Assembly (NCBI GenBank): GCA_016178705.1 | Contig: JACOST010000008.1 | Span: 102,069 to 166,068 of the forward strand | Direction: 5' to 3' | Origin: Deltaproteobacteria bacterium | GTDB taxonomy: Bacteria > Desulfobacterota > Binatia > HRBIN30 > JACQVA1 | DNA: 64,000 nucleotides | In this document: one piece after another, positions 24,549-41,084 of the stretch | Position numbering within the stretch: position 1 is the first letter of the stretch | Layout: every line of letters starts with the position of its first letter | Notes under the pieces: model-generated | What the model was told of the DNA's origin: nothing | Seen by the model: the letters and a program-made list of their open reading frames with translations, nothing else | Databases searched by the model: none | Translations under genes and position numbers: made by a program

Positions 24549-24554
24549 GTCCGT

Positions 24555-27221
<2,667 letters not shown>

Positions 27222-27285
27222 GGGCGAAACAGATGCGTGCTGTCGCTACCGGAATCGAGTGCGCTGAGCAAGTGATGGTAGGCAG

Positions 27286-27370
27286 CTTCTGGTCTGTGGT
27301 TTCTGGTTTCTGGTCTGTGGTTTCTGGTCTCTGGCTTTCAGCTTTCGGCTTTCCGCTTTCAACTTCTTCC
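27286..27370. repeat. Tandem array with 7-nt period (ctggtct/gtggttt/ctggctt units, about 12 units)
   Basis: cttctggtctgtggtttctggtttctggtctgtggtttctggtctctggctttcagctttcggctttccgctttc, read directly from the sequence upstream of valS. Confidence 0.8.
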
Positions 27371-27443
27371 CTGCCTAGGTAGTGTCTCAGTTTGAAAATT
27401 CAACGGGCTTGGAACGACCCGGCAATCGTGCGATCTTGTCCGC

Positions 27444-27674
27444 ATGCCGAAGGGACCGCAAGGCCAGCGCAGACCCGCCGACGTGATCGGCAACGCGGTC
27501 CACGTGATGCGGATTGCGACCGGCGAGATTGAGGATACGCCACGCGACCCCGGCAAAGAGTACATGCGCAAGGGTGGGCTGAAGGGCGGGAAGGCGCGGG
27601 CGGCGACGCTCAGCAAGAAACGGCGGACGCAGATTGCAAAAAATGCCGCTCGGGCACGATGGGAGAAACCGTGA
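27444..27674 (+). CDS. Small basic conserved hypothetical protein (76 aa)
   Basis: MPKGPQGQRRPADVIGNAVHVMRIATGEIED...KGGLKGGKARAATLSKKRRTQIAKNAARARW. I recognise this as a widespread small-protein family of unknown function but cannot name it. Confidence 0.35.
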   Translation: MPKGPQGQRRPADVIGNAVHVMRIATGEIEDTPRDPGKEYMRKGGLKGGKARAATLSKKRRTQIAKNAARARWEKP

Positions 27675-27730
27675 ACCAAAACAAACAACGAAATTGCGGC
27701 GTGGTAGGCAACTTGCTGTCGTCTCCGAAC

Positions 27731-27961
27731 ATGGCGGATACAGTCGAACGAGTCGTTCTCTTGGCCGAGATCGAAAAGGGCCTCCGGAGTCGCGTTGCTG
27801 GAATTGACGGATGGCTGGCTGAAATTGGTAGCTCCTGTAAAACGGACCAGCGTCATTGCGAAGAGGGGACGGTCGAGCGCGCCTATTGGCACTACGGCTA
27901 TGCCGTAGCGATCAAGGACGTGCTCGACCTCCTTCAGTCAGCGGCGATGCCGATCAACTAA
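27731..27961 (+). CDS. Hypothetical protein
   Basis: ORF MADTVERVVLLAEIEKGL... with no recognisable motif. Confidence 0.2.
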   Translation: MADTVERVVLLAEIEKGLRSRVAGIDGWLAEIGSSCKTDQRHCEEGTVERAYWHYGYAVAIKDVLDLLQSAAMPIN

Positions 27962-28365
27962 GCACCACACGCCGGGCAGTGGTTCCAGGCGTAAGGCTTC
28001 GCCGGATGGATCTCGTTGTCCAGCCGCCCCTGCGCACCACCGAATGCATGGTAGAGGAGGCATTCCTTTTCGTAAGCGGCCGTTGCATTAGGAAAGTGGC
28101 CGTACATGAAGTACCGGTATTTGCCGATCCAATCCTTCAGACGGCCGTTCAAGTCGTCGTCGGATCGTCCGGCATAGCGAATGGTCAGCGAGTTATCGGG
28201 AAGGAGCACATCACCAAGAAGATAAGCGCCGATCGACCTGCTGACGTTCGCATCAATTTCTGAGCGTGTCAGGCTAAAGATTCCGGAAAGACCAGTTGCA
28301 ATTGCCATTGCAAACCTCATCATCTGCGGTTCGTGACCGCCGTAAAGGACTTGCCAGGAATTCAT
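27958..28365 (-). CDS. Hypothetical protein, weak GIY-YIG-nuclease-like motif spacing, C-terminal CxxC
   Basis: GIFSL...AYLLG...R...YRYFMYGHF...AYEKECLLYHAF...N and a C-terminal NHCPACGA. The resemblance to GIY-YIG is by eye only. Co-oriented and immediately downstream of the HTH-HATPase-STAS gene. Confidence 0.25.
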   Translation of the reverse strand: MNSWQVLYGGHEPQMMRFAMAIATGLSGIFSLTRSEIDANVSRSIGAYLLGDVLLPDNSLTIRYAGRSDDDLNGRLKDWIGKYRYFMYGHFPNATAAYEKECLLYHAFGGAQGRLDNEIHPAKPYAWNHCPACGA

Positions 28366-28524
28366 GGACTCGCTAAGAAGGCTTCTGCTCGGCTAATTCT
28401 GGCAAACCCGAGTTGATACCACCGACAAGGCCGCTGCGTGGGGCAGCGGCCTTGTCGCCTTGATGGGACTGAATCTTCTTGTACGGCACTTCCAGATAAG
28501 CGTCCTCCCTTCCCCTTCTGCACT

Positions 28525-29652
28525 CTAAGCTATTTCCGTCTCCCCCTTTGGGCGCGGTCCTTCGCCATTCTCGCTCAGTGGCGTCATGCCGGGCAGAAAT
28601 GGTGTTTCGGTATTGCCGCCGTCGCTCTTGACGTGCAGAATCATTCGCACCACGTCGGAACTAGCGTTCACTTGCCAGATGTGAATGTCTGGATGCTCGC
28701 GGGCGAACACTCGAAATATCTCGTCAGCGAATCCCTGGCCAATACTTTCAACCCCAGAGAAGTCGAGAACGACCTCCCTAAAGTGGTCAACCCGCTTGAG
28801 GAGTCGGCGCGCCTGCGATCGAGAAACCAGCATCTCGCCGTCATGCTGAGCAAGGCTTGCGACCAAGTGGGTGCGCGTAAACCCGTAGTGGTCGGTGCTC
28901 GGCGCAAATTGGTTGAACACTTCCAACGCTGTTCGCAGCGACAGAGGATGGATGGTCATGTGGACATGGGTCCCTGCCGCTGGGGCCGGGTCTATCTCTA
29001 ACAGCCAGTCCTTTTCGTCACGGTGCGCGAAGTACAACTGGGCCGACATGATGCCGAACAGATCGAACATCCTGGAAGTAAAAAAGATGCCTTCGCCACT
29101 GTGGTGGGCATGGTCGGTTGTGAGTTTTCCCTTTGAGAGTTCCAATACAGCGTGTCGCGGATCATCAAGTCCGAAGGCCCTTTGGAGCTTGGCGAAGATT
29201 CCGACGCCGTGGTCGACGACGGTCAGCCCGATCGCTGCGGCCGTGCGGCTGATACCAACGACAAATGCGGGAGACTCTGAATGCACGATCGCGTTGTTCA
29301 CGATTTCCGTGATCCCGTGTTGACAAATGGTTCGCACGTTTGCCGGTACGTCCTTCAGGTGCGGTAGAATCTCATTTCGCCATACCTCATCTTCGTTGAC
29401 GCCAGGACCGATCTCTCGTCGTGCGACATGGTTCACCAGTTGGGCGAGACAATACGATCTGCCCTTTGTATCTCCATTGGGAATGAGCCAACCCATCTGG
29501 ACAAGATCATGTAGGTGGCGATGTACTGCCTGCCGACTCACATCGAAGTGTTCCGCAGTCACTCTGGCGATGTCACCAGGATGGGCCGCGACATTGTCCA
29601 CAATCCACCGCTGCATGGACTCCTGCTCTGACATGGCCGTATTTGAAACCAT
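28525..29652 (-). CDS. HTH – GHKL (HATPase_c, RsbW/SpoIIAB-like) – STAS-like (DUF4325) fusion protein
   Basis: N-terminal wHTH (DIARVTAEHFDVSRQAVHRHLHDL). GHKL N-box ITEIVNNAIVHS, G1 VVDHGVGIF, G2 HHSGEGIFF. C-terminal VVLDFSGVESIGQGFADEIFRVF...VNASSDVVRMI matches the DUF4325 consensus. Confidence 0.55.
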   Translation of the reverse strand: MVSNTAMSEQESMQRWIVDNVAAHPGDIARVTAEHFDVSRQAVHRHLHDLVQMGWLIPNGDTKGRSYCLAQLVNHVARREIGPGVNEDEVWRNEILPHLKDVPANVRTICQHGITEIVNNAIVHSESPAFVVGISRTAAAIGLTVVDHGVGIFAKLQRAFGLDDPRHAVLELSKGKLTTDHAHHSGEGIFFTSRMFDLFGIMSAQLYFAHRDEKDWLLEIDPAPAAGTHVHMTIHPLSLRTALEVFNQFAPSTDHYGFTRTHLVASLAQHDGEMLVSRSQARRLLKRVDHFREVVLDFSGVESIGQGFADEIFRVFAREHPDIHIWQVNASSDVVRMILHVKSDGGNTETPFLPGMTPLSENGEGPRPKGETEIA

Positions 29653-29797
29653 GATCGCGCGTTTGTCAACCTACACGCTTTGATTTGGCAACGGGACATG
29701 GTAGATTTGCGCCGTTCTTCGGTTTTTGGTGGTAACGATGGCTCCAAATAGTCAATTGATGCTTGACACTCAAGCAAAAATATCATATACTCCGGGC

Positions 29798-30652
29798 ATG
29801 AACAGATTGCCCCTAGCCAAGCGCGCCCAAATCCTCTCGCTGCTCTGTGAAGGTTCGTCGATGCGCTCAGTGTCGCGGCTCGTGGACGTGTCGATCAACA
29901 CCGTCACCCGCGAGCTGATCCTTGCCGGCCAGGCATGCACGGCATTCCACGATCAGGTGGTGCGCAACGTGAACTCCAAGCGCATTCAGTGTGATGAGAT
30001 TTGGTCGTTCTGCTACTCCAAGGCGAAAAACGTCCCGGAAGAGAAGCGAGGGAAGTTCGGGTACGGCGACGTGTGGACGTGGACGGCAATCGACGCCGAT
30101 TCCAAGCTCTGTCTTTCGTGGTTTCTTGGCGGACGCGATGCGGGCGCGGCCTACTACTTCATGATGGACCTATCGGAACGCCTCACGTCGCGCGTGCAAC
30201 TCACGACCGACGGGCACAAGACGTACCTCAGCGCCGTTGAATCCGCGTTTGGCATCGGGATCGACTATGCGATGCTGGTGAAGATTTACGGCGCATCGCC
30301 CGAGGGCGAAACGCGCTACAGCCCAGCGGTCTGCATCGGCACCGAACGCCACGCGGTCACGGGCGACCCGGACCCCGAGCACATTTCAACGAGCTACGTG
30401 GAACGCTCAAACCTCACGATGCGGATGCACATGCGCCGCTTTACTCGCCTCACCAACGCCTTCTCGAAGAAGATCGAGAACCACGGCCACATGGTTGCGC
30501 TCTATACGGTCTGGTACAACTTCGTGAGAATCCACAAGACGCTGCGGATGAGTCCGGCGATGGCTGCTGGTGTTACGTCGGCCCTCTTGTCGATGGAAAA
30601 CGTGGTCGAGATGGTCGATCAGTGGGAAGCGGCGAAAAAGACCGCGACGTGA
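29798..30652 (+). mobile_element. IS1-family transposase (single-ORF form with HTH + DDE)
   Basis: CDEIWSF...TTDGHKTY...ERSNLTMRMHMRRFTRLTNAFSKKIENH parallels E. coli IS1 InsB (DEQWGY...TDGWPLY...[28 protein letters not shown]). There is an AT-rich stretch just upstream (29770-29795). Terminal inverted repeats are not defined. Confidence 0.7.
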
Positions 30653-30669
30653 TAGAGACCAAAGCCGCA

Positions 30670-31119
30670 ATGGAAACAGAGGACAACCCACCACCGCGCG
30701 CCAGCGTGAACTACCGACGCGGCCTAACACGCTTGTATGTTGTGATCTCGGCCCTCTGGATTGCATTTGTCCTAGTCGGCGTGCCGTGGTGGGCACGTGA
30801 TACATGGATACGGAACGCTAGCGTGGCTTTGGAGCAGAAAAAGCAGGAGATGTCCTCCCGCGACGCGGCCCTGAAGAAGTCCCCGATCGACCAACGCGAA
30901 GCGGATGAGCATCAACGCCTCGCCGACGAACATCAGCGTGACGCCGAGTGGTTCCGGCAGCACGCAGACAACTGGTGGTCAGAAACCTGGCTTGCCCCGC
31001 GCCTGTTGTCGCTTTGGGCAATCGCCCTCGGCGCAATACCAATAGCTCTCTATGGCATTCTCTACGCACTGATTTCGGGACTGGACTGGGCCAAGCGCGG
31101 CTTCAGAAATTCAAACTGA
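30670..31119 (+). CDS. Hypothetical membrane protein (2 TM helices)
   Basis: Hydrophobic segments LYVVISALWIAFVLVGVPWW and LLSLWAIALGAIPIALYGILYALI. No other motif. Confidence 0.3.
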   Translation: METEDNPPPRASVNYRRGLTRLYVVISALWIAFVLVGVPWWARDTWIRNASVALEQKKQEMSSRDAALKKSPIDQREADEHQRLADEHQRDAEWFRQHADNWWSETWLAPRLLSLWAIALGAIPIALYGILYALISGLDWAKRGFRNSN

Positions 31120-31205
31120 GACACTACCCCTGCCTACTGTCCCTTGACCGTGTCGCAGCGGGAAGCTATCACCGTCGCGCGCTAGCCGACAGTGTTCACA
31201 CCCAT

Positions 31206-31289
31206 GCGAAAGTGGCGGAACTGGCAGACGCGCAGGATTCAGGATCCTGTGGGGTAAAACCCGTGGGGGTTCAAGTCCCCCCTTTCGCA
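31206..31289 (+). tRNA. tRNA-Leu (anticodon CAG), long variable arm
   Basis: Acceptor stem GCGAAAG/CTTTCGC, D-arm TGGCGGAACTGGCAGACGCG, anticodon stem-loop CAGGA-TTCAGGA-TCCTG (CAG at positions 34-36), long variable arm, T-arm GGGGGTTCAAGTCCCCC. No CCA encoded. Confidence 0.8.
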
Positions 31290-31488
31290 CTTCGTCCGTT
31301 GAGCGCTAACGCATTTGCCAGATCTACCTGACGCTGCGTTTGTTGCTGTTTCTCGCTACCACCCAGCAGGCCCACGACCCGCATCGCAGCGCTTCGCGAA
31401 GTAAGATGCGATAGCCGGAAGCTAACACTCCGGAACGAATAGAGGACCCCTTCCCTCCCCGAGCGCCTGTTCGGCGATCTAGGGAGCG

Positions 31489-31512
31489 TCGTCGCTGGCA
31501 TCCCACGACATG
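31489..31512. repeat. 24-bp exact direct repeat, copy 1 (copy 2 at 33946-33969)
   Basis: tcgtcgctggcatcccacgacatg occurs twice. On the minus strand it encodes MSWDASDD, which is the C-terminal end of the PPOX-like gene at copy 2. Confidence 0.8.
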
Positions 31513-31665
31513 CGCCGGCGCGCCAACTATCAGCGACACGATCACGGCCGCGCCGCGTCTGGCCATCATCTACCACGATCTCTCGTGACGGCATCCTCGA
31601 TACGGTCGGACAGGGAGCGATGCCGTTGCCGACACACACCCCGTTTGTGTTACCGCGCGATCACC

Positions 31666-32808
31666 CTATTGGCACGCGAACGTGCCGGTGACGACGACGT
31701 CACCGGTTTGCTCGTCCAGGTTGCCGAATGCGCTCACCTGCGACGAGCCGCTCAGTCCGTCCATCGGATTGCCCGCCATGATCTTACCGCAGTCGAGCGC
31801 CGACCCGGTGACCTTGGTCCGGCAGTGACTCGCGCCGCAGACCTGCCCGTCGGCGATGCTGGTGCCCTGGATATCGCTGGTGTTCAGGATTTGCGCCGTC
31901 GCCGTTCCGGTGGTGGTCGCCAGCAGGTTGGGCTTCCCTATGCCGACATCGTCGGCGGTACAGGGAATGCCGTCCGGCCCCTCTGGGGCGCCCGCCGTGT
32001 TGGGCGGCACGGTCTTGCACGTACCGCCGTCCGGCAACAGGCTGACCGACGTATTCGAGTTGATCACCGCCGAACCAGTCGGGCCGGAGCCGCTGAAGGT
32101 AGTCACCGGCATGGCGTTGCACGCCGGCTTGCTGCTGCATAGGCTAGGGTTGTGCGGATGCATATCCGAACCGTCTTCCGGCGTCCCGCTTGTGCAATTC
32201 GGATCGGGGTCGGGCGTGTCGCAGTGCGTGTCGTGGTCGATGCTGTAGAGGTAGTTCACATTCGCCAAGCCGGCGGAGCCGCAGCCGGCTTTGCCTTCGG
32301 CGGAGTTCATGCCGCCGAAGGCGGCCACCGGCACGCTGCGCACGCAGGCGCAGCCCACGCCGGACACCTTGACGGGATCGAACGTCATATCGGGCGCCGC
32401 GATGACGATCGGCACCTCCATCGCGGCGAAGGCAGGCGTCGATGACCCGGCGTAGAAAGTGGAATCCGTCCGTGGATGCCCAGTGGTGAGCGTTTGCTGG
32501 CCGGTGAGGCGGAGCTGGATCGCGAAGATGGCCGTCTGCACCTTGGAGACGGTATCGGGGCCGAACACGCACAAGCGGCGGTTTTCCACCGTGCAATTGG
32601 CCGCACAGCCGTCGCCGCCGATGGTATTGCCATCGTCGCATTCCTCGGAACCTTCCATCACGCCGTTGCCGCAGACAGCGCCTGTACTGGAGGGCGTGTT
32701 CGCCGGGGTAGCCGTCCCGCCTTCGTTATCACCGCCGCAGGCGGCGAGGAAGATCGCCATGCCGCCGGCCGCGAGGATCGCGCCGAACCACTGGTTCCGA
32801 GTCTTCAT
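31666..32808 (-). CDS. Secreted lipoprotein with myxobacterial-type cysteine-rich repeat
   Basis: Lipobox LAACGG. VCGNGVMEGSEECDDGNTIGGDGCAANCTVE matches the Myxococcus cysteine-rich repeat (CGDG...EECDDGN...DGC...C..E). The remainder is Gly/Thr/Cys-rich. Confidence 0.6.
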   Translation of the reverse strand: MKTRNQWFGAILAAGGMAIFLAACGGDNEGGTATPANTPSSTGAVCGNGVMEGSEECDDGNTIGGDGCAANCTVENRRLCVFGPDTVSKVQTAIFAIQLRLTGQQTLTTGHPRTDSTFYAGSSTPAFAAMEVPIVIAAPDMTFDPVKVSGVGCACVRSVPVAAFGGMNSAEGKAGCGSAGLANVNYLYSIDHDTHCDTPDPDPNCTSGTPEDGSDMHPHNPSLCSSKPACNAMPVTTFSGSGPTGSAVINSNTSVSLLPDGGTCKTVPPNTAGAPEGPDGIPCTADDVGIGKPNLLATTTGTATAQILNTSDIQGTSIADGQVCGASHCRTKVTGSALDCGKIMAGNPMDGLSGSSQVSAFGNLDEQTGDVVVTGTFACQ

Positions 32809-33183
32809 GTCATCCTCCTCAACTAGTGTACCCCGTGTCGATCTCGTGATGGCCAGGATCGAGCAGCGTGTTCAGCGACTGCGGAGTCGGCGACAGGGCA
32901 GCGGCGGGATCGATCGGAGCCGCCCGAGCCGGCAGCGCGGCACCGTGCAGTCACAGATCCCCGTCGAAGTATTTTTGGTACGTCTTACCGCGAATCCGCT
33001 CGCGGTTGATCGCGAACTGCCGCTGTGTGGCGACCGGATAGTACGTGACCCGGTTCTTCATGCTCCCTTCCGTGGGAACGGGTGTGCGCCAAGGTAGTGC
33101 GCATGCCACTCCGCGGTGAGGCGGGAGAACGTCGGCGCGGTGAGCTCGGCGGGGCGATGTCCAGCGGGCTGCCATCGTGGCGC

Positions 33184-33789
33184 TCAGAAGCGGAGCATGT
33201 CGACCGGGCCTGTGCCCTCGGGAAGCGGCGGTCGCGCCGTGAGTGTCTCGATCGGCTCGCCGGCCTCGTAGCGCGCGACGAGTTCCTCCGGATCAAAGAT
33301 CACGCCGATCGGATTGGCGGAGAACTCGCCGCTGCGCATCCAGGCGTCAATCGCCCGGGCGGAGGGCATGCTGTCGACCTGCAGCTCGACGCGGTTGCCG
33401 TCGGGATCCTTGTAGTACAGCGAGGTGGTCGGCCCGCGGTTGATGCACCAGTACGGCTCGATACCGGCTGCCTTGAGGCACCGGAAGGTGTGCAACAGAT
33501 CGCCGAGATCCGCGTAGCTGAACGCGATGTGATCGGTGCCAGCAGCCATCATTGGCTGCTCTTCGAGCCCAGGAATACTCGCGATGGCGATCCGATGGTG
33601 CTCGTCGTCGTAAGTGAGAAAGGCGAGTACGCCGTCGGAGTGCACCACCTCGGCGCCGAGGACAGTGCAATACCAACGTACCAACTCGTCGAAGCGCGCG
33701 GTACGACGCACGACGTGTGCAAGCTGGCGCGGCTTCACCACGCCGCGATTCACGGACAGCCGACGTTGGCGGTCTTCCCGAGTGCTCAT
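33184..33789 (-). CDS. VOC-family protein (glyoxalase/extradiol dioxygenase fold)
   Basis: MSTREDRQRRLSVNRGVVKPRQLAHVVRRTARFDELVRWYCTVLGAEVV... shows the typical VOC beta-alpha-beta-beta-beta module pattern. ATG at 33789; the track ORF from 33948 starts inside the 24-bp repeat. Confidence 0.55.
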   Translation of the reverse strand: MSTREDRQRRLSVNRGVVKPRQLAHVVRRTARFDELVRWYCTVLGAEVVHSDGVLAFLTYDDEHHRIAIASIPGLEEQPMMAAGTDHIAFSYADLGDLLHTFRCLKAAGIEPYWCINRGPTTSLYYKDPDGNRVELQVDSMPSARAIDAWMRSGEFSANPIGVIFDPEELVARYEAGEPIETLTARPPLPEGTGPVDMLRF

Positions 33790-33916
33790 GTGTTCTCCTG
33801 TCTCCTGCAGGTCCTTGGCCGTTCGTTGAAAACGTCCCTCTTGGATCGGGGCCGGACCAGAACGAGGAAATCTTCCTGCGTGGAAATCGCGCTCGTGCCG
33901 CGACCCCGTGCTCCGT

Positions 33917-34486
33917 TCAGGGGGAGGGACGTGCATCGTCGCTGGCATCCCACGACATGAGCGAGCTCACCCAGTGCGTGATCGGCTCCTCTTGGTCGTT
34001 GCGGTGGAGATGGCGCGGAGGCTGCGCGAACGTCTCATAGGGCTGGCAGCGGAGGACGACCCGGCCCTCCTGCTCCGCCATCGCTTGGACCATGGGGCGC
34101 GCGTGATCGGGAAGGGGCTGGCCCGACATACGACCGGCCACGGCCATCATGACGTCGACCACCAGCTCCGGATCGGTCTCGACGCGAGCGTCGCAATAGA
34201 CTTGAAGATAGGCGAAGGGCCAGCGCTCGTCGAGGATGCACAGGCTCACCTTGCCGTTGCGAGCGACCGCCTTCGCCTTGGCACGACCGCGCATGGTGGA
34301 AACGAGCAGCTCATCGCCGTCAGTCGGCACGTAATACACGATAGACATAGCTGGACCGTCCAGGCGACGGGCGTTGCCGAAGACGCAGGTGCGGTGGGTC
34401 CGGACGAAGGTCCGCCGCTCGGACGGTAGCATGTCGCGATCGGTTGGGGTCGTGAAGGGTTCAACGGGCCACGGTAGCAAGTGCAT
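33917..34486 (-). CDS. PPOX-class (pyridoxamine 5'-phosphate oxidase-like) probable F420-dependent oxidoreductase
   Basis: MHLLPWPVEPF...RTCVFGNARRLDGPAMSIVYYVPTDGDELLVSTMRGRAKAKAVARNGKVSLCILD fits the PPOX-class F420-dependent enzyme pattern. Divergently transcribed from the TetR gene. Confidence 0.55.
   Translation of the reverse strand: MHLLPWPVEPFTTPTDRDMLPSERRTFVRTHRTCVFGNARRLDGPAMSIVYYVPTDGDELLVSTMRGRAKAKAVARNGKVSLCILDERWPFAYLQVYCDARVETDPELVVDVMMAVAGRMSGQPLPDHARPMVQAMAEQEGRVVLRCQPYETFAQPPRHLHRNDQEEPITHWVSSLMSWDASDDARPSP
33946..33969. repeat. 24-bp exact direct repeat, copy 2
   Basis: Identical to 31489-31512. It overlaps the last 8 codons of the PPOX-like gene on the minus strand. Confidence 0.8.
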
Positions 34487-34509
34487 TTGGGGCTCTCCTT
34501 CGGAGCAGA

Positions 34510-35259
34510 TTGTATTATCGATCGATAATACTATATCGTAGCTCCGTGAGTTACACAAGCAAGGGCCGCCCCCGCGTTCGTCGCGATCGCAAGAACCTGC
34601 GCTCACAGTTGTTGGACGCAGCGCTCGTCGAATTCGGCGCGAAAGGATTCACCGGCGCATCGACGCGAGCCATCGCCCGGCGCGCCAACGCCCACCAGCC
34701 GCAGATCAACTACCACTTCGCCTCGAAGCGCGCGCTGTGGAACGCGGCGCTCGAGCACCTCTTCGCTCTGCTTGGCGACGCCATGGGCGGCGTCGTAGTG
34801 CCCCCGCGCACCGGCCGGAGGCACGACGTCCAGGCGCTTGCGGATGCGTTCGCCGAGGGTATCCGATGCTTCGTGCGGTTCGCGGCCGCGCACCCTGAGC
34901 TGAACCGGATCGTGGTGCACGAGGCGACGGCGGCGAGTGAGCGACTCCGTTGGATGACGAAGCGACACGTGCGGCCGTTCTACGAAACCGTCCGCGCGCT
35001 CTGGCGTCCGCTGCGCGCCGCCGGGATCGCGGCGCCCATCGACGAGAAGCTGGTGCACTACGTGCTCGTCGGTGCCGCCTCGCTACCCTACGTCAATGCT
35101 CCCGAGGCGCGGCTCCTCACCGGCGCCGAGCCAACCGATCCGGCCTGGGTTGAAGCGCACGCGGATGCCCTGGTGGCGACGTTGCTGCCCGGGCGGACCG
35201 AGAGGCCGCGAGCAGCGCGGCGGGAGGTTGCTTTCGCGAGACGCCGTCGGACCAAGTGA
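34510..35259 (+). CDS. TetR/AcrR-family transcriptional regulator
   Basis: N-terminal HTH ...RSQLLDAALVEFGAKGFTGASTRAIARRANAHQPQINYHFASKRALW. The start may be GTG 34546, downstream of the palindrome. Confidence 0.75.
   Translation: MYYRSIILYRSSVSYTSKGRPRVRRDRKNLRSQLLDAALVEFGAKGFTGASTRAIARRANAHQPQINYHFASKRALWNAALEHLFALLGDAMGGVVVPPRTGRRHDVQALADAFAEGIRCFVRFAAAHPELNRIVVHEATAASERLRWMTKRHVRPFYETVRALWRPLRAAGIAAPIDEKLVHYVLVGAASLPYVNAPEARLLTGAEPTDPAWVEAHADALVATLLPGRTERPRAARREVAFARRRRTK
34513..34530. promoter_or_regulatory. 18-bp perfect palindrome TATTATCGATCGATAATA in the divergent PPOX/TetR promoter region (probable TetR operator)
   Basis: Read directly from the sequence. It lies between minus-strand ATG 34486 and the TetR ORF, in an AT-rich context. 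Confidence 0.45.
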
Positions 35260-35317
35260 CGGAGAAGAACGGACGCTGACGGCAGCGTCTGCATTCTTTC
35301 ATGCTTAGCCCGCTGAC

Positions 35318-35362
35318 CCTGTGGGGCAAGACCCGTGGGGGGTTCAAGTCCCCCCTTTCGCA
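35318..35362. repeat. Direct repeat of the 3' end of tRNA-Leu(CAG) (45 nt, 3 differences): att-site-like island boundary
   Basis: cctgtggggcaagacccgtggggggttcaagtcccccctttcgca versus tRNA 31245-31289 cctgtggggtaaaacccgtgggggttcaagtcccccctttcgca. No matching 5' half upstream, so it is not a second tRNA. Confidence 0.7.
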
Positions 35363-35407
35363 TCTAAATTCCTGCTCGACAAATCTCGCCGAGTTGCGCG
35401 CCCGCCG

Positions 35408-35455
35408 CGGCATGGCCGCGTAGAGTCACTCAAGCCGCCTTCGCCGTGACGGACA
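35408..35455. repeat. 48-bp direct repeat, copy 1 (includes the last 8 codons + stop of the higA-like gene and 24 nt downstream)
   Basis: cggcatggccgcgtagagtcactcaagccgccttcgccgtgacggaca matches 36197-36245 with 2 mismatches. Confidence 0.75.
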
Positions 35456-35750
35456 ATCTAACGCGCGTCTTCTTCTGCAGGGTACGGACGATGCCGAAGA
35501 AATTTTCGGTGCTCGGATTTCCGTGCGGTGCCAGCATCCGATGGAGGCTCTTGCTCGGTTTGTTGACTGCCGCCGCGAGGGCCTCGAAGCCGACCGTCGC
35601 GTTAACCAAATCGCGCAAGATAGCCTTGCCAGTAGATGTGTCGCCGGCGAGATAGGCGTTGATCGCTTCGCTAAACAGCGCTTGACGGAATCGCGCATCG
35701 CGCTGGGCTCGTGCCAGGATGGTTTCCCTGAAATCTCGTGTGAGCGCCAT
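35430..35750 (-). CDS. higA: HigA-family addiction-module antidote protein (HTH)
   Basis: MALTRDFRETILARAQRDARFRQALFSEAINAYLAGD...FFGIVRTL matches the addiction-module antidote (HigA) family pattern. Immediately downstream of the killer gene. Confidence 0.65.
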   Translation of the reverse strand: MALTRDFRETILARAQRDARFRQALFSEAINAYLAGDTSTGKAILRDLVNATVGFEALAAAVNKPSKSLHRMLAPHGNPSTENFFGIVRTLQKKTRVRLSVTAKAA

Positions 35751-35768
35751 AATCTCCTCTCTGACAAT

Positions 35769-36122
35769 TCACGCCTTCCGGCGCCGGTAGTCGGCCCATC
35801 GCGCTCTTGCCGAGGCGATGGCTTCCTGCTGTCGTTGCTTGCTGCTCCCACCCAGCAAGATCACCAGGGCATCTCCATCTCTGCCGAAATAGACGCGGTA
35901 GCCAGGACCAAACTCGATCTTCCGTTCGAACACACCGGAGCCAACACCTTTCACGTTCGAAAAATTGCCAGCGGCCAGCTGATGGACAGCCGCAGCCACT
36001 TTGGCCGCCGCCGGCGCATTCAACGAGTCGAACCACCTCGCGTAGGCGGAACGGCCGTGGCCATCGAGGTATTCAACGAGCCGGATCGGCGCCACGCATG
36101 AAAGTAACATAAATGTTACCAT
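35769..36122 (-). CDS. higB: Addiction-module killer protein (RelE/HigB-like toxin)
   Basis: MVTFMLLSCVAPIRLVEYLDG...GNFSNVKGVGSGVFERKIEFGPGYRVYFGRDGDALVILLGGSSKQRQQEAIASA fits the putative addiction module killer family. ATG at 36122 sits within the inverted repeat GTAACAT-AA-ATGTTAC. Confidence 0.65.
   Translation of the reverse strand: MVTFMLLSCVAPIRLVEYLDGHGRSAYARWFDSLNAPAAAKVAAAVHQLAAGNFSNVKGVGSGVFERKIEFGPGYRVYFGRDGDALVILLGGSSKQRQQEAIASARARWADYRRRKA
36104..36119. promoter_or_regulatory. Inverted repeat GTAACAT-aa-ATGTTAC overlapping the higB-like start codon (candidate autoregulatory operator)
   Basis: Read directly from the sequence. TA operons are typically autorepressed at palindromes near the start. 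Confidence 0.3.
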
Positions 36123-36140
36123 TGTTGCAACCGCGGCATC

Positions 36141-36177
36141 GGCGGGCACCATCCATAGATCCGGCGGAGCCTCCTCG
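36141..36177. repeat. ~37-bp direct repeat, copy 1 (copy 2 at 37710-37748 immediately after the stop of the 36505-37710 gene)
   Basis: ggcgggcaccatccatagatccggcggagcctc versus ggcgggagccatccataaatcgggcggagcctc (4 mismatches). Confidence 0.65.
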
Positions 36178-36196
36178 AACCGGGCGGGATTTCGGC

Positions 36197-36245
36197 GGCA
36201 TGGCCGCGTCGAGTCGCTCAAGCCGCCTTCGCCGTGACGGACATG
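36197..36245. repeat. 48-bp direct repeat, copy 2 (orphan higA 3'-end remnant upstream of higB)
   Basis: The minus strand reads ...ATGTCCGTCACGGCGAAGGCGGCTTGA, i.e. SVTAKAA*, the same C-terminal codons as the higA-like gene. Confidence 0.75.
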
Positions 36246-36504: not shown

Positions 36505-37710
36505 ATGAACGGTCACATGGAAAGGACAATGAAGGCGTCGCACGTCCTGCTCACGTCGAGAAGACTATCATTCTTGCCGATCTTTGGACTCGTGTTGGTC
36601 GCGTTGAATACGGGAGCTACGTTACAGGCACAATTCCCTGCTCGCGGAGACGATGTTACGCCGTCGCTCGGCCAATTTAATGTCGTCGTTGATCCCCACT
36701 TCGAGGCTGCAATCCAGAGCAATCCCGCGTATGGCCCGTTTCTCTCCAACAAGGGCGGTAACTTGAATTTCACCAGCCCGATCCTCTTTGATCCGACAAC
36801 AACGATCGGGCGAAGTGACCCGCTCAGCGCAGGTTCGGCTGAGGATATCGCCGGGGTGCTGTCGGGGACTTTGGCGCCGCGCCTGCTTCAAGACGGCCAA
36901 TTCACGGTGAGGCCCTCCTTTGCGGAGGGCCCCGACGGCACGCACGAGGTTCACACTTTCATCGAATCCCTCCACCTGATGGGAAATGGATTCGAAGTGA
37001 AGGCCGGAGACCAAGCTCCGCGGCGGCCAATCAGCGTGGGTGAGGTGGAGTCTCTGTCCGGCAACAGCGGGAATCCGATTCAGGACTTCCCGGCTAACAG
37101 CTTTTTCGATGTCTTCGTTGAGGTAGACGTTCCCGCTCTGGGGGGATTTCCGAGTGTCCAGTTGGTCAATGTCGATCCCCTCTTGGTTCAAAGCGACAGT
37201 ATCACCAGCTTCCCGCCAACCGTTCTCTATGTACACGGGAACTCTTCCGCCGTGCCGCTATACTTCTACGCGGACATACCTGTTTTCGGCGTTCATCGAG
37301 GGGACCTGTTCGGCCAACTGACTGTGGCCGGCCACGGGGTCGGCTTCACCGAGGCGGACGTGGCGGAGTTCGAAGCCAAGGAAATGGAATCCGAGCAGCA
37401 TCGTGGTCGTCTGCCGCTTCAGGCCAATCCAATCCCGCACGTGACCATTGTCGATGAGGTTTTGAACACTCCCACACCAACACCGACACCCACACCAACA
37501 GCGACCCCGACAACGACCCCTCCGCCCTGTATCGGCGATTGCGATGGCTCGCGCTCCGTGACCGTCGAGGAACTAATCATCGGGGTCAACATCGCGCTGG
37601 ACCAAGCACCGCTCAGCGGCTGCATGAACTTCGACAGCGACAACAGTCAGACGGTCACCGTCGAGGAACTGGTGCAGGCAGTCGGCAACGCGCTGGGCAA
37701 CTGCCCGTAG
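36505..37710 (+). CDS. Secreted protein with Pro/Thr linker and C-terminal dockerin-like tandem calcium-binding repeats
   Basis: Signal peptide MKASHVLLTSRRLSFLPIFGLVLVALNTGATLQA. Linker TPTPTPTPTPTATPTTTPPP. C-terminus CIGDCDGSRSVTVEELIIGVNIAL...CMNFDSDNSQTVTVEELVQAVGNAL has two DxDxS/N..VTVEEL repeats. The start is one of ATG 36505, 36517 or 36529. Confidence 0.5.
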   Translation: MNGHMERTMKASHVLLTSRRLSFLPIFGLVLVALNTGATLQAQFPARGDDVTPSLGQFNVVVDPHFEAAIQSNPAYGPFLSNKGGNLNFTSPILFDPTTTIGRSDPLSAGSAEDIAGVLSGTLAPRLLQDGQFTVRPSFAEGPDGTHEVHTFIESLHLMGNGFEVKAGDQAPRRPISVGEVESLSGNSGNPIQDFPANSFFDVFVEVDVPALGGFPSVQLVNVDPLLVQSDSITSFPPTVLYVHGNSSAVPLYFYADIPVFGVHRGDLFGQLTVAGHGVGFTEADVAEFEAKEMESEQHRGRLPLQANPIPHVTIVDEVLNTPTPTPTPTPTATPTTTPPPCIGDCDGSRSVTVEELIIGVNIALDQAPLSGCMNFDSDNSQTVTVEELVQAVGNALGNCP

Positions 37711-37748
37711 GCGGGAGCCATCCATAAATCGGGCGGAGCCTCGGCAAC
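37710..37748. repeat. ~37-bp direct repeat, copy 2
   Basis: See 36141-36177. Confidence 0.65.
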
Positions 37749-37822
37749 CCCGGCCTGAGGCTGGCCCGGGATGCCATCCGCGGTTACCTCGAATGCCCTG
37801 TGTATCAACGAGAAGAGAAAAG

Positions 37823-37895
37823 TGGAGCTGAACGGAATCGAACCGTCGACCTCCTGAATGCCATTCAGGCGCTCTCCCAACTGAGCTACAGCCCC
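37823..37895 (-). tRNA. tRNA-Ala (anticodon GGC) with the G3:U70 identity pair
   Basis: The reverse complement GGGGCTGTAGCTCAGTTGGGAGAGCGCCTGAATGGCATTCAGGAGGTCGACGGTTCGATTCCGTTCAGCTCCA folds as a canonical cloverleaf. The anticodon loop ATGGCAT gives GGC. Acceptor pair 3:70 is G:U. Confidence 0.8.
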
Positions 37896-37944
37896 ACAGG
37901 TGAGTGGACGCAAAAGTTGTAACCGAAACGCTACGGCAGGGCAA

Positions 37945-38007
37945 GGTTTTGGATTGCGGATTGGGGATTGCGGAGTGCGGAATGCAGAGTGCGGAATGCG
38001 GAATGCC
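37945..38007. repeat. Heptamer tandem array (GGATTGC/GGAATGC/GGAGTGC units, about 9 units)
   Basis: ggttttggattgcggattggggattgcggagtgcggaatgcagagtgcggaatgcggaatgcc. Confidence 0.8.
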
Positions 38008-38027
38008 ACCACGGTCCGCGCGAATGA

Positions 38028-38090
38028 GTCACGAACACGACTCACCAGTCACGAATCACGATTTCACGATCTCACGACCTCACGGTCCGC
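38028..38090. repeat. Heptamer tandem array (CACGAAT/CACGATT units, about 8 units)
   Basis: gtcacgaacacgactcaccagtcacgaatcacgatttcacgatctcacgacctcacgg. Confidence 0.75.
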
Positions 38091-38401
38091 GCAGACGGAT
38101 GTCGTCTTTGCCCTCCATCATCTCGGGCGTGACGATGTAGGTACCGCGGCAGGCGTTGTCCCAGATTTTCTGCGTGGCATCCGCATCGCCGAGGGTGACC
38201 GCGTACACCAGCACGCCGGTGACACCACCGATGATCGAGTAGACCAGCTTGAGCGGCAGGTAGACGATGTTGGTCAGCACCGCACCGGTGATCACGATCG
38301 GACGGTGTCCCTCGTCTTCTGCGTCTCGCCGTACCGCGTGAGCCGGCGCCACGAGCAGTGCGATCACGATGATTGCGATGAACGTTCGACTGCTCCCACG
38401 C
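38080..38401 (-). CDS. Small hypothetical membrane protein
   Basis: MRGSSRTFIAIIVIALLVAPAHA...IVITGAVLTNIVYLPLKLVYSIIGGVTGVLVYAVTL has two hydrophobic helices. The start is uncertain. Confidence 0.3.
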
Positions 38402-38429
38402 ATCCGCCACCTCCTCGTCCGCAGAATAC

Positions 38430-38512
38430 GGAGTCCAAACCTCAAAGTCCAAGGTTCAAAGTCAACTCTTGGGCTTGGAACTTTGGACTTTAGACCTTGG
38501 ACTTTGGACTCA
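38430..38512. repeat. Heptamer array with inverted symmetry (AAAGTCC units then GGACTTT units); overlaps the last codons of rarA
   Basis: gagtccaaacctcaaagtccaaggttcaaagtcaactcttgggcttggaactttggactttagaccttggactttggactc. Confidence 0.75.
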
Positions 38513-41078: not shown

Positions 41079-41084
41079 GCGGCC

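What the first reader, a model, noticed from the sequence alone, without database searches (positions are those of the whole stretch)
27240..38490. ~11-kb mosaic accessory region between valS and rarA bounded by convergent tRNA-Leu and tRNA-Ala genes
Seen in sequence: between two conserved housekeeping genes lie an IS1 element, orphan small ORFs, an HTH-GHKL-STAS protein, two tRNAs whose 3' ends point toward each other (31289 and 37823), several gene-end direct repeats, a TA module, secreted-protein genes and heptamer arrays. Inference: a recombination and integration hotspot assembled by serial insertions at tRNA and gene 3' ends. No recombinase remains, which suggests an old, decayed mosaic.
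Basis: inference. Interest (0 to 1): 0.5.

Follow-up and report, generated by a model that had tools for sequence, protein, structure and literature searches.

The report
Variable gene islet between two tRNAs
Between two conserved housekeeping blocks of an uncultured Binatia bacterium lies an ordinary strain-variable stretch made of a freshly inserted, cargo-carrying IS1-type jumping gene, a small islet with the scar of integration into a tRNA gene, a toxin-antitoxin pair and a secreted-protein gene.

Summary
In detail: valS, rarA, two convergent tRNAs, an IS1-type transposase, an HTH-GHKL-STAS protein, a toxin-antitoxin pair, two secreted-protein genes, gene-end direct repeats and heptamer arrays are all present.

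- **One element, not several.** The "IS1 element", "orphan ORFs" and HTH-GHKL-STAS gene form a single 3,751-bp IS1-family transporter IS (27378-31128). It has perfect 19-nt inverted repeats, an 8-bp target duplication and an intact transposase. A relative with 95-96% identical ValS has the empty site. So this part is recent, and a recombinase does remain.
- **True variable interval.** It is 31291-37800, exactly between the 3' ends of tRNA-Leu and tRNA-Ala. The tRNAs, the 121-aa gene and the heptamer spacers belong to the conserved flanks.
- **tRNA-Leu islet.** 31291-35362 ends in a 45-nt copy of the tRNA-Leu 3' part that starts right after the anticodon. This is an integrase-type footprint with no integrase left.
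- **Synteny.** The flanking blocks are conserved in Binatia relatives. The sequence beyond each tRNA differs wherever it was recovered, and valS and rarA were never seen adjacent.

This is a known kind of hotspot. The cargo-carrying IS family, and heptamer hairpin arrays that differ between close relatives, are the more interesting by-products.

The parts
24555..27221 (-). valS, edge of the conserved left block (valS-nadC-birA-coaX-fusA)
   Evidence: Pfam tRNA-synt_1 E 1e-138. The block is conserved in relatives with 71-96% identical ValS.
27287..27365 (.). Heptamer arrays (TTCTGGT x7.4, GCTTTCA x4.6) in the valS/tRNA-Leu spacer
   Evidence: TRF. The orthologous spacer in L110 carries different units, GGCAGTA/TACTGCC.
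27370..27377 (.). Left copy of the 8-bp target-site duplication CCTGCCTA
   Evidence: Sequence.
27378..31128 (+). 3,751-bp IS1-family transporter IS; terminal inverted repeats at 27378-27396 and 31110-31128
   Evidence: 19/19-nt IR with 0 matches expected by chance. Empty site in L001/L110. Same IR and an 8-bp TSD in plasmid-borne relatives. GC 0.571, tetranucleotide z 6.0.
27444..27674 (+). 76-aa basic protein next to IRL, conserved across the IS family
   Evidence: 41-57% identical ORF at the same position in all four plasmid elements.
27958..28308 (-). Cargo: 116-aa protein with GIY-YIG-like motifs and a C-terminal CPxC
   Evidence: 728 representative homologues. hhalign against the E. coli UvrC N-terminal domain gives probability 77.9%, E 1.8e-5. 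Pfam and PDB searches were negative.
28525..29652 (-). Cargo: HTH-GHKL-STAS-like (DUF4325) protein
   Evidence: Pfam DUF4325 E 1.7e-15; weak MarR_2 and HATPase_c_2 matches. About 8,000 homologues at roughly 50% identity.
29798..30652 (+). IS1-family DDE transposase, single ORF of 284 aa
   Evidence: DDE_Tnp_IS1 29.4 bits, above the 24.1 cut-off. 57-66% identical to PGAP 'IS1 family transposase' proteins. BLASTP against InsB1 E 2e-7. TTGACA-17-TATACT at 29763-29791.
30622..31119 (+). Cargo: 156-165-aa membrane-type ORF downstream of the transposase
   Evidence: ORF list. Called as a gene in the source records. No family match.
31129..31136 (.). Right copy of the target-site duplication CCTGCCTA
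   Evidence: Sequence.
31206..31290 (+). tRNA-Leu(CAG), conserved; homology to the relative ends 3 nt past its 3' end
   Evidence: ARAGORN and Rfam. Identical in L001/L110.
31291..35362 (.). Islet A: DUF4215 lipoprotein 31666-32808(-), glyoxalase/VOC 33184-33789(-), PNPOx 33917-34486(-), TetR 34547-35259(+)
   Evidence: Pfam and NCBIfam. None of these genes was found in any fetched locus of a relative. Native composition, GC 0.65-0.66.
35318..35362 (+). attR-like partial copy of tRNA-Leu, from just after the anticodon to the 3' end
   Evidence: 93.3% over 45 nt to 31246-31289, E 3.6e-11. The mismatches lie only in the variable arm; the last 20 nt are identical.
31486..31524 (.). D7a: copy of the PNPOx 3' end; partner D7b at 33933-33971
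   Evidence: 24 nt perfect, E 5.8e-6; 27 nt at 96%.
35407..35455 (.). D1a: 49-nt repeat covering the antitoxin 3' end; partner D1b at 36195-36243
   Evidence: 95.9% identical, E 5.8e-17.
35430..36086 (-). Toxin-antitoxin module: antitoxin 35430-35750, RelE/ParE toxin 35769-36086
   Evidence: TIGR02683 85.6 bits, above the 62.85 cut-off. The antitoxin belongs to a 16-member cluster at 90% identity or more, spread over many metagenomes.
36141..36243 (.). Composite junction D2a (36141-36185) + 9 nt + D1b (36195-36243)
36529..37710 (+). Secreted-type protein with a TP-rich linker and two dockerin/EF-hand-like C-terminal repeats
   Evidence: ORF and translation. Internal repeat D4. Segment GC 0.594, z 4.6.
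37710..37754 (.). D2b: imperfect copy of D2a, 68 nt from the tRNA-Ala 3' end
   Evidence: 33 nt at 87.9%, E 3e-4.
37822..37895 (-). tRNA-Ala(GGC), conserved; homology to relatives ends about 22 nt past its 3' end (about 37800)
37951..38084 (.). Heptamer/octamer arrays (GGAATGC x8, TCACGAA, TCACGATC) in a conserved spacer
   Evidence: TRF. Not alignable with L116.
38080..38445 (-). 121-aa membrane-type gene, part of the conserved rarA block
   Evidence: 90% (L116) and 59% (L118) identical orthologues at the same position.
38432..38510 (.). Inverted heptamer arrays (AGTCCAA / TTGGACT) forming a hairpin
   Evidence: TRF. Fold -34.7 kcal/mol, z -4.2.
38490..39863 (-). rarA/mgsA, edge of the conserved right block (rarA | nadK-recN-ompA)
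   Evidence: Pfam MgsA_C E 3e-73. Synteny in L116 and L118.

Best explanation
The region is the junction of two conserved chromosomal blocks of a Candidatus Binatia genome: ...fusA-coaX-birA-nadC-valS-tRNA-Leu on the left and tRNA-Ala-121aa-rarA | nadK-recN on the right. Each block ends in a tRNA gene whose 3' end faces the junction. The junction is filled by modules that look independently acquired.

1. A 3,751-bp IS1-family transporter IS transposed recently by DDE cut-and-paste or copy-paste into the heptamer spacer between valS and tRNA-Leu. It duplicated 8 bp (shown). It carries a conserved small basic protein and the transposase. Its cargo is an HTH-GHKL-STAS one-component-type regulator, a small GIY-YIG-like protein and a membrane ORF.
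2. A 4.07-kb islet sits directly on the tRNA-Leu 3' end. It closes with a 45-nt copy of the tRNA from the anticodon loop to the 3' end. This is the attL/attR footprint of a tyrosine-integrase-type insertion whose integrase is gone (footprint shown, mechanism inferred). It is therefore a CIME-like remnant. Inside it, a lipoprotein-glyoxalase pair is bracketed by copies of the PNPOx 3' end.
3. A 788-bp RelE/ParE toxin-antitoxin cassette is bracketed by 49-nt repeats. The simplest model is recombination of a TA-bearing segment at the antitoxin 3' end (inferred).
4. A low-GC secreted-protein gene lies next to tRNA-Ala, bracketed by 45-nt imperfect repeats.

The same junctions hold different accessory genes in relatives, including defence systems and toxin-antitoxin pairs. 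The site therefore behaves as an integration and recombination hotspot.
For: IS:
- Perfect 19-nt IRs, with none expected by chance, and the 8-bp TSD CCTGCCTA.
- Empty site in L001/L110: valS spacer and tRNA-Leu are contiguous, 93-95% identical DNA.
- The same IR, an 8-bp TSD and conserved transposase plus 76-aa ORF, with different cargo, in Acidiphilium, Hoeflea and Mesorhizobium plasmids.
- Atypical composition.

Islet:
- tRNA-Leu 3' copy, E 3.6e-11, starting directly after the anticodon. Mismatches are confined to its 5' part.
- Homology with relatives stops 3 nt after tRNA-Leu and about 22 nt after tRNA-Ala.

Hotspot:
- Left block conserved in L110-L115 and L123; right block in L116 and L118.
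- Different content beyond the tRNAs: SRAP/TauD; a DUF1156/DUF499/helicase island; HamA plus helicase; PemK, HepT/MNT and PIN pairs; DUF4760/ThiS/AFOR.

Other:
- Repeats D1, D2 and D7 are significant.
- The antitoxin is widespread at 90% identity or more.
- Two NCBI MAG assemblies carry the same gene order.
Against: - No integrase is present, and islet A has native composition (z 1.2 and -0.1). Integration at tRNA-Leu is inferred from the repeat alone.
- No tRNA-Ala fragment marks the right side.
- D1, D2 and D7 could come from local duplication or illegitimate recombination rather than site-specific insertion.
- Only one close relative (95-96%) covers each flank, and those contigs are short or come from different samples. 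The ancestral state of the junction, and the distance between valS and rarA in relatives, are unknown.
- All data are metagenome assemblies.
Confidence: 0.75

Rival explanations
1. One reading: an old, decayed mosaic built only by insertions at tRNA and gene 3' ends, with every recombinase lost.
For: There is no tyrosine or serine recombinase in 31291-37800. Every long ORF there is accounted for by other families. The tRNA-Leu repeat is 93% identical, not 100%. Islet A is ameliorated or native in composition.
Against: The 3.75-kb IS is intact, with perfect IRs, a TSD and a full-length DDE transposase, and it is missing from a relative with 95-96% identical ValS. It inserted in an intergenic heptamer spacer, not at a 3' end. 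D1 is still 96% identical, and the antitoxin has copies at 90% identity or more in many metagenomes.
Confidence: 0.15
2. Vertical inheritance with differential loss. The ancestor carried a long region between valS and rarA, and each lineage kept a different subset; there was no horizontal insertion apart from the IS.
For: Islet A genes have genome-typical GC and GC3. No mobility gene accompanies them. Relatives also carry gene-rich stretches at these junctions.
Against: No gene is shared between the junction contents of any two relatives or the window. Homology breaks exactly at the tRNA 3' ends. The 45-nt tRNA-3' direct repeat starts at the anticodon loop. Junction contents in relatives are defence systems and toxin-antitoxin modules, which are typically mobile.
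Confidence: 0.1
3. The direct repeats D1, D2 and D7 are by-products of local tandem duplication followed by deletion or illegitimate recombination. They are not scars of cassette insertion.
For: The repeats are local only. No other copy exists in the window or in the fetched loci of relatives. D2a + 9 nt + D1b form a composite junction that multi-step duplication and deletion can also produce. D7 similarity is limited to 27 nt of coding 3' end.
Against: Sequence between the repeat copies shows no paralogy. The bracketed units are complete functional modules (TA pair; lipoprotein plus glyoxalase; secreted protein). The TA module differs in GC3 from its neighbours.
Confidence: 0.3
4. Assembly artefact: the metagenomic contig wrongly joins a valS contig and a rarA contig through tRNA or repeat sequence.
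For: Logan contigs of the same runs end inside tRNA-Leu (L082 at 31251, L083 at 31278). One 6,594-bp Logan contig appears to carry just the inter-tRNA interval. Several relatives' contigs also break near tRNA-Leu.
Against: Two NCBI MAG contigs (153,887 and 179,995 bp) carry the same gene order from the IS to the secreted protein. L081 is 100% identical to the window across 23798-36707 apart from one 55-bp indel. The two tRNAs share no sequence that could cause a false join.
Confidence: 0.05

Closest known systems
IS1 family insertion sequences, single-ORF type, in their 'transporter IS' (tIS) form
   Same: - DDE transposase matching DDE_Tnp_IS1, with the InsB catalytic-E region.
- The IR tip GGTAGTGTCTC resembles the IS1A ends GGTGATGCTGCC and GGTAATGACTCC.
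- 8-bp target duplication.
- Passenger genes lie inside the IRs, as defined for tIS (PMC9330008).
   Different: - There is no InsA/InsAB' frameshift pair; the transposase is a single 284-aa ORF with its own HTH.
- At 3.75 kb it is about five times the 768-bp IS1A.
- It has an extra conserved 70-76-aa basic protein next to IRL.
- A variable cargo slot holds regulator- or protease-type genes.
- It scores below the NCBIfam transpos_IS1 cut-off (57.5 against 100 bits).
tRNA-gene-targeted genomic islands, and their integrase-less derivatives (cis-mobilizable elements, CIMEs)
   Same: The islet sits on the 3' end of a tRNA gene and is closed by a direct repeat of the tRNA 3' part. It has no integration or transfer genes, as in the CIME definition (PMC6323972). 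Content varies between relatives.
   Different: - It is only 4 kb.
- The repeats are 93% identical, not identical.
- Its composition is native.
- No cognate integrase-bearing element has been identified, so mobilisation in cis is untested.
Type II toxin-antitoxin modules of the RelE/ParE (HigB-like, TIGR02683 'upstrm_HI1419') type
   Same: The toxin scores above the curated cut-off. The toxin gene lies upstream of a small partner gene with an 18-nt gap. A palindrome GTAACATAAATGTTAC lies upstream.
   Different: The partner matches no curated antitoxin model. The module is bracketed by 49-nt direct repeats, which is not a usual feature of TA loci.
RsbW/RsbV-type partner-switching modules (GHKL anti-sigma kinase plus STAS antagonist)
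   Same: The cargo protein combines a GHKL ATPase/kinase-like region with a STAS-like domain. The N-box EIVNNAIVH and the DHGVGI and GEGIF motifs can be read in the sequence.
   Different: Both parts are fused to an N-terminal wHTH in a single polypeptide. No sigma factor or phosphatase partner is nearby. The homologue in Zoogloea is a solitary gene. Function is untested.
Cyanobacterial STRR (short tandemly repeated repetitive) heptamer sequences (comparison from my own knowledge)
   Same: Intergenic tandem heptamers of several unit types, scattered over the genome.
   Different: The host is a 64% GC Binatia genome. The arrays often occur as inverted pairs that form long hairpins. The unit sequence differs between relatives at orthologous spacers where the adjacent proteins are about 96% identical.

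Membership tests
IS1 family insertion sequence | DDE transposase of the IS1 type | tested here: met
   Pfam DDE_Tnp_IS1 29.4 bits, above the 24.1 cut-off, though a partial match. BLASTP against E. coli InsB1 E 2e-7 over the catalytic-E region. 57-66% identical proteins are named 'IS1 family transposase' by PGAP. However, NCBIfam transpos_IS1 gives 57.5 bits, below its 100-bit cut-off.
IS1 family insertion sequence | Terminal inverted repeats with an IS1-like tip (GGT...) | tested here: met
   19/19-nt IR GGTAGTGTCTCAGTTTGAA. 9 of the first 12 nt match the IS1A IRR GGTAATGACTCC.
IS1 family insertion sequence | Short target-site duplication (8-9 bp) | tested here: met
   8-bp TSD in the window and in the Acidiphilium, Hoeflea and Mesorhizobium elements. 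None in the Methylocapsa copy.
IS1 family insertion sequence | InsA/InsAB' arrangement with a programmed -1 frameshift (classical IS1) | tested here: not met
   A single 284-aa ORF with an N-terminal HTH. It therefore belongs, at most, to a single-ORF subgroup. ISfinder naming could not be checked.
Transporter IS (tIS) | Passenger genes unrelated to transposition inside the IRs, moving with the element | tested here: met
   Five elements share IRs, the transposase and the small ORF, but carry different passengers: DUF4325 plus a GIY-YIG-like protein; an SDH protease; XRE-M78 plus a partner in three. The TSDs flank the whole unit.
tRNA-targeted integrative island | Abuts the 3' end of a tRNA gene and is bounded by a direct repeat of the tRNA 3' part | tested here: met
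   31246-31289 against 35318-35362, 93.3% identical, E 3.6e-11. The copy starts at the nucleotide after the anticodon.
tRNA-targeted integrative island | Encodes a tyrosine or serine recombinase | tested here: not met
   No recombinase family among the ORFs of 31291-37800, and no unassigned stretch long enough for one.
tRNA-targeted integrative island | Variable presence among relatives | tested here: met
   No islet gene in any fetched locus of a relative; different genes follow tRNA-Leu there.
tRNA-targeted integrative island | Atypical base composition | tested here: not met
   GC 0.648 and 0.663, tetranucleotide z 1.2 and -0.1. This feature is common but not obligatory.
Type II toxin-antitoxin (RelE/ParE, TIGR02683) | Toxin above the curated family cut-off | tested here: met
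   85.6 bits against a 62.85 cut-off.
Type II toxin-antitoxin (RelE/ParE, TIGR02683) | Adjacent cognate antitoxin with a DNA-binding fold | tested here: inconclusive
   A 106-aa ORF lies 18 nt downstream and is named 'DNA-binding phage protein' or 'transcriptional regulator' by the sources. It has no Pfam, NCBIfam, PADLOC or PHROG match.
GIY-YIG nuclease superfamily (116-aa cargo protein) | GIY / YIG / Arg / Glu / Asn motif set | tested here: inconclusive
   The family consensus G.Y...YVGRSD.DL..RLK.H...EC.LYH...LDN can be read in alignment A2. hhalign against the UvrC N-terminal domain gives probability 77.9%, E 1.8e-5, but over only 37 columns. Pfam and PDB profile searches were negative. 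The AlphaFold model is unusable (pLDDT 45.6).
Known anti-phage defence systems (PADLOC) | Match to a defence-system model | tested here: not met
   The only match for the IS cargo or TA proteins was a weak SoFic hit at E 0.0037.

The most novel reading that the evidence does not exclude
The IS1-type element may belong to a cross-phylum family of transposons (Binatia chromosome, alphaproteobacterial plasmids) with nearly invariant ends and a dedicated cargo slot. That slot would carry small 'sensor plus effector' conflict cassettes.

Here the cassette would be an HTH-GHKL-STAS one-component partner-switch protein with a GIY-YIG-like nuclease. Elsewhere it is XRE-M78 with a partner, or a ClpP-like SDH protease. 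On this reading the widespread DUF4325 family would be an undescribed defence or addiction module spread by transposition.
Probability: 0.15. Interest if true: 0.6.

Novelty: new member of a known kind. Interest (0 to 1): 0.33.

Why it matters
- It gives a worked example of how accessory DNA builds up in an uncultured, little-studied lineage (Binatia): at the 3' ends of two facing tRNA genes that terminate conserved blocks. The same junctions hold defence islands and toxin-antitoxin pairs in relatives.
- It corrects the annotation. Five genes filed as unrelated hypothetical proteins and a lone transposase are one mobile unit.
- It defines a family of cargo-carrying IS1-type elements. Their ends are identical or differ at only 1-3 of 19 positions across phyla, while the transposases are only about 57-66% identical to the window's.
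- None of this changes general understanding of genome plasticity.
- The cargo genes (DUF4325 protein, GIY-YIG-like protein) and the fast-changing heptamer hairpins are the pieces worth a follow-up.

Tried and rejected
- **Genome-contig scan with ValS.** Only one close Binatia locus (L001) was useful.
- **Exact look-up of the window's RarA.** Not on record, probably because a different start codon was called.
- **Metagenome scan with the exact tRNA-Leu.** It returned 20 loci. Only three had valS next to the tRNA, and most contigs were short.
- **tblastx of those loci against the window.** Swamped by spurious high-GC matches; discarded.
- **PADLOC, PHROGs and NCBIfam on the small ORFs.** Nothing informative.
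- **DUF4325 protein against plasmid and phage records.** No match, so no second DUF4325-carrying IS could be found there.
- **GIY-YIG test for the 116-aa cargo.** Pfam scans of family members and two PDB profile searches were negative. The single-sequence AlphaFold model had pLDDT 45.6 and was not used. Only the pairwise hhalign against UvrC gave moderate support.
- **D1-like match at 60901-60925.** It lies inside rho and is chance.
- **Literature search for 'ISMhu11'.** Nothing found, so the ISfinder subgroup name rests on memory only and is not claimed.
- **GC skew.** Shows no informative shift across the region.
- **Partial tRNA-Ala copy.** Searched for and not found.

Full report
**Source and setting.** The window matches, at 100% identity, a contig of an uncultured bacterium assembled from a metagenome (GCA_016195705.1, JACPZC010000026.1). 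The only difference over 23798-36707 is one 55-bp indel. The closest valS relatives are Candidatus Binatia assemblies. The genome is about 64% GC.

**Checking the observation.**
- valS lies at 24555-27221(-) and rarA/mgsA at 38490-39863(-).
- ARAGORN and Rfam find exactly two tRNAs in the 64 kb: tRNA-Leu(CAG) at 31206-31290(+) and tRNA-Ala(GGC) at 37822-37895(-). Their 3' ends face each other.
- Between valS and rarA lie, in order:
  - an IS1-type transposase;
  - an HTH-GHKL-STAS (DUF4325) protein;
  - a DUF4215 cysteine-repeat lipoprotein;
  - a glyoxalase/VOC protein;
  - a PNPOx-family protein;
  - a TetR regulator;
  - a RelE/ParE toxin (TIGR02683, above cut-off) with a small partner;
  - a secreted-type 394-422-aa protein (length depends on the start codon chosen).
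- Tandem Repeats Finder confirms the heptamer arrays.
- A gapped self-comparison confirms four direct repeats at E-values from 6e-17 to 3e-4.

**The IS is a single 3.75-kb unit with cargo.**
- The repeat search found a perfect 19-nt inverted repeat, GGTAGTGTCTCAGTTTGAA, at 27378-27396 and 31110-31128. None is expected by chance, even with three mismatches allowed.
- The 8 bases outside each arm are the same, CCTGCCTA. This is a target-site duplication.
- The 3,751 bp between them hold five genes:
  - a 76-aa basic ORF (27444-27674);
  - a 116-aa ORF (27958-28308, -);
  - the DUF4325 gene (28525-29652, -);
  - the transposase (29798-30652, +), preceded by TTGACA-17-TATACT;
  - a 156-165-aa membrane-type ORF.
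- A Binatia relative whose ValS is 95-96% identical (L001/L110) has the valS spacer joined directly to the tRNA-Leu upstream region. This is an empty site.
- The element has 57% GC and a tetranucleotide distance 6 sd from the window background.

**Family of the IS.**
- The transposase passes Pfam DDE_Tnp_IS1.
- It aligns with E. coli InsB1 over the catalytic-E region at E 2e-7.
- It is 57-66% identical to plasmid proteins that PGAP names "IS1 family transposase".
- It falls below the NCBIfam IS1 cut-off and lacks the InsA/InsAB' frameshift pair.
- In the Acidiphilium multivorum and Hoeflea plasmids, the same 19-nt sequence (the Acidiphilium right arm has one mismatch) flanks elements of 2,634 and 4,224 bp, with 8-bp duplications AAGCCGAG and GATGATTG.
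- A Mesorhizobium loti plasmid copy (3,370 bp, two IR mismatches) has the duplication CGCTGGTG. A Methylocapsa copy (3,125 bp) has none.
- All five elements share the transposase and the small basic ORF next to the left end (41-57% identity).
- Everything else differs: a ClpP-like SDH protease in Acidiphilium, and XRE-HTH plus M78 (IrrE/ImmA-like) proteins with a partner of roughly 150-220 aa in the other three.
- The IR tip resembles the IS1A ends.

This fits the published notion of a transporter IS, an IS derivative carrying passenger genes (PMC9330008).

**The cargo.**
- The DUF4325 protein has a weak wHTH match (residues 14-58), a GHKL-like region (101-199) and the STAS-like DUF4325 domain (280-334). 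The N-box and G-box motifs can be read in its sequence.
- About 8,000 homologues of 340-370 aa were found at roughly 50% identity, and none is closer than 55%. In Zoogloea the homologue is a solitary gene between clpB and attH.
- It matches no PADLOC model convincingly, and no plasmid or phage record.
- The 116-aa ORF is a real family with 728 representatives. Its consensus is G.Y.LG...YVGRSD.DL..RLK.H...EC.LYH...LDN..HP...CP.C.
- A profile comparison aligns this consensus with the GIY, YIG and Arg motifs of the E. coli UvrC N-terminal domain (probability 77.9%, E 1.8e-5, 37 columns). Pfam and PDB profile searches were negative, and the single-sequence structure model was unusable.
- A nuclease role for this ORF is therefore a lead, not a result.

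**Synteny.** Homologue searches with ValS and RarA, followed by context look-ups, gave graded Binatia relatives.
- *Left side.*
  - valS-nadC-birA-coaX-fusA is kept in every relative from 71% to 96% ValS identity.
  - tRNA-Leu(CAG) follows valS in every relative at 80% identity or above whose contig reached that far, and in three at 61%.
  - Beyond the tRNA (beyond valS in L114 and L115, which lack it there), the content differs each time:
    - SRAP plus a TauD-like gene (L001/L110);
    - an island of at least 10 kb with DUF1156 methylase, DUF499, PDDEXK and helicase genes (L111);
    - HamA plus helicase and a PIN pair (L114);
    - PemK, HepT/MNT and DUF4160/DUF2442 pairs (L115);
    - a zinc-ribbon protein (L092), which also has a VapC-type PIN gene between valS and the tRNA.
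- *Right side.*
  - ompA-recN-nadK | rarA-121aa-tRNA-Ala is kept in L116 (96%) and L118 (85%).
  - DNA similarity to the window stops at about 37800, 22 nt beyond the tRNA-Ala 3' end.
  - L116 then continues with unrelated genes (DUF4760, ThiS, AFOR, HAD, M10, Lhr), and no valS appears within 10 kb.
- On the left, similarity with L001 stops 3 nt past the tRNA-Leu 3' end.
- None of the window's islet genes occurs in any fetched locus of a relative.

The accessory DNA is therefore the IS plus 31291-37800. The tRNAs, the 121-aa gene and the spacers are conserved flank.

**Anatomy of the inter-tRNA interval.**
- *tRNA-Leu footprint.*
  - Positions 35318-35362 repeat tRNA-Leu from the nucleotide after the anticodon to the 3' end (93.3%, E 3.6e-11).
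  - The three mismatches and one extra G all lie in the variable arm. The last 20 nt are identical.
  - From established knowledge of tRNA-targeting tyrosine integrases (anticodon-loop crossover, duplicated tRNA 3' part), this is what an attL/attR pair looks like when the incoming attP came from a slightly different tRNA-Leu.
  - No recombinase gene is present and no room is left for one. [quoted passage not shown]
  - Its composition is native, so it is either old or came from a related donor.
- *Repeat D7.* Within the islet, a 27-nt copy of the PNPOx 3' end (31486-31512) and the true gene end (33933-33959) bracket the lipoprotein and glyoxalase genes.
- *Repeat D1.* The toxin-antitoxin pair is bracketed by 49-nt repeats at 96% identity. 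These comprise the last 26 nt of the antitoxin gene plus 23 nt downstream.
- *Repeat D2.* D2a lies 9 nt from D1b. Its partner D2b follows the stop codon of the secreted-protein gene, 68 nt from tRNA-Ala.
- *A one-step model* for D1a-TA-D2a-9nt-D1b is recombination of a 788-bp TA-bearing segment at D1. Duplication and deletion scenarios are not excluded.
- *Spread of the TA module.* The antitoxin has 16 cluster members at 90% identity or more across many metagenomes. Every other protein looked up in the region clusters only with sequences from two NCBI assemblies and Logan run assemblies, apart from one ENA copy of the glyoxalase; the toxin sequence as submitted was not on record.
- *Composition.* The secreted-protein segment is atypical (GC 0.594, z 4.6).

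**Reliability of the assembly.**
- Two NCBI contigs (153,887 and 179,995 bp) carry the same gene order from the IS through the secreted protein.
- Logan contigs from the same runs stop inside tRNA-Leu. One 6,594-bp Logan contig appears to hold just the inter-tRNA interval.
- This hints at strain heterogeneity at both tRNAs rather than a false join. Only read mapping can settle it.

**Heptamer arrays.**
- They sit in the conserved spacers and elsewhere in the window (4666, 5086, 41016).
- In relatives whose adjacent proteins are about 96% identical, the orthologous spacers carry arrays of different units:
  - GGCAGTA/TACTGCC in L110, where the window has TTCTGGT and GCTTTCA;
  - CACGAAG/CTTCGTG in L116, where the window has AGTCCAA/TTGGACT.
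- Several are inverted pairs that fold into long hairpins (-35 to -78 kcal/mol, z -4 to -9). Others do not fold better than shuffles.
- The IS landed in a remnant of one such arm.
- The arrays are a genome-wide feature, not part of the accessory region.

**Verdict.**
- The locus is a hotspot of a well-known kind: tRNA-bounded, with serially acquired small modules.
- "No recombinase, old and decayed" is wrong for the IS, which is intact and recent.
- Novelty is modest: a new member of known kinds.
- The most interesting by-products are the cross-phylum IS1-type transporter family with its variable cargo slot, the uncharacterised DUF4325 and GIY-YIG-like cargo, and the fast-evolving heptamer hairpins.

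Noticed in passing
window 4666-4699, 5086-5116, 27287-27365, 37951-38084, 38432-38510, 41016-41086; L110 1530-1640; L116 5790-5925: Intergenic tandem heptamer arrays of several unit types. At orthologous spacers, relatives whose adjacent proteins are about 96% identical carry different units. Several arrays are inverted pairs that form long hairpins (z -4 to -9). They resemble cyanobacterial STRR repeats, but in a 64% GC Binatia genome. Origin and function are unknown.
   Followed up: partly
L119 2267-4900; L120 1555-5778; L121 2776-5900; L122 2796-6165: Plasmids of Acidiphilium, Hoeflea, Methylocapsa and Mesorhizobium carry relatives of the window's IS. The terminal repeats are identical or differ at 1-3 of 19 positions, and three have 8-bp target duplications. 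All share a conserved small basic ORF but carry different cargo: a ClpP-like SDH protease in one, and XRE-M78 plus a partner in three.
   Followed up: yes
window 34537-34591 (absent in L081 between 10739 and 10740): A 55-bp indel separates the window from the GCA_016195705.1 contig. The deleted form lacks the N-terminal start of the TetR gene. Next to it is a 20-nt perfect palindrome (34512-34531), likely the operator between the divergent PNPOx and TetR genes.
   Followed up: partly
L111 1-9576; L114 3913-7756; L115 2798-9709: In other Binatia, the DNA next to valS or tRNA-Leu holds defence-type and toxin-antitoxin genes. These include DUF1156 methylase/DUF499/PDDEXK/helicase genes, HamA plus a DEAD helicase (Hachiman-like), a PIN pair, PemK, HepT/MNT and DUF4160/DUF2442.
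   Followed up: no
window 27958-28308 (-): The 116-aa IS cargo protein belongs to an unannotated family of at least 728 representatives, some fused to zinc ribbons or larger proteins. It has a GIY-YIG-like motif set and a C-terminal CPxC.
   Followed up: partly
window 35430-35750 (-): The antitoxin-like protein has 16 cluster members at 90% identity or more from many unrelated metagenome samples. Every other protein looked up in the region clusters almost only with this organism's assemblies, which suggests the TA module spreads on its own.
   Followed up: no
L082 and L083 ends (window 31251 and 31278); Logan contig of 6,594 bp: Independent assemblies of the source runs break inside tRNA-Leu. 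One contig seems to equal the inter-tRNA interval. This hints that the population is polymorphic at both tRNA junctions.
   Followed up: no
window 37471-37517 and 37558-37696: The secreted-type protein has a (Thr-Pro)n linker encoded by ACACCG repeats. It is followed by two copies, 96 nt apart, of a ...VTVEEL...N(I/A)AL motif resembling dockerin/EF-hand repeats. Pfam gives only a faint EF-hand match.
   Followed up: no
L084-L089 (Zoogloea and related contigs), gene at 6001-7047: A 49% identical DUF4325 homologue sits alone between clpB and an attH-like gene. This shows that the HTH-GHKL-STAS protein can function, or at least persist, without a fixed neighbour.
   Followed up: partly
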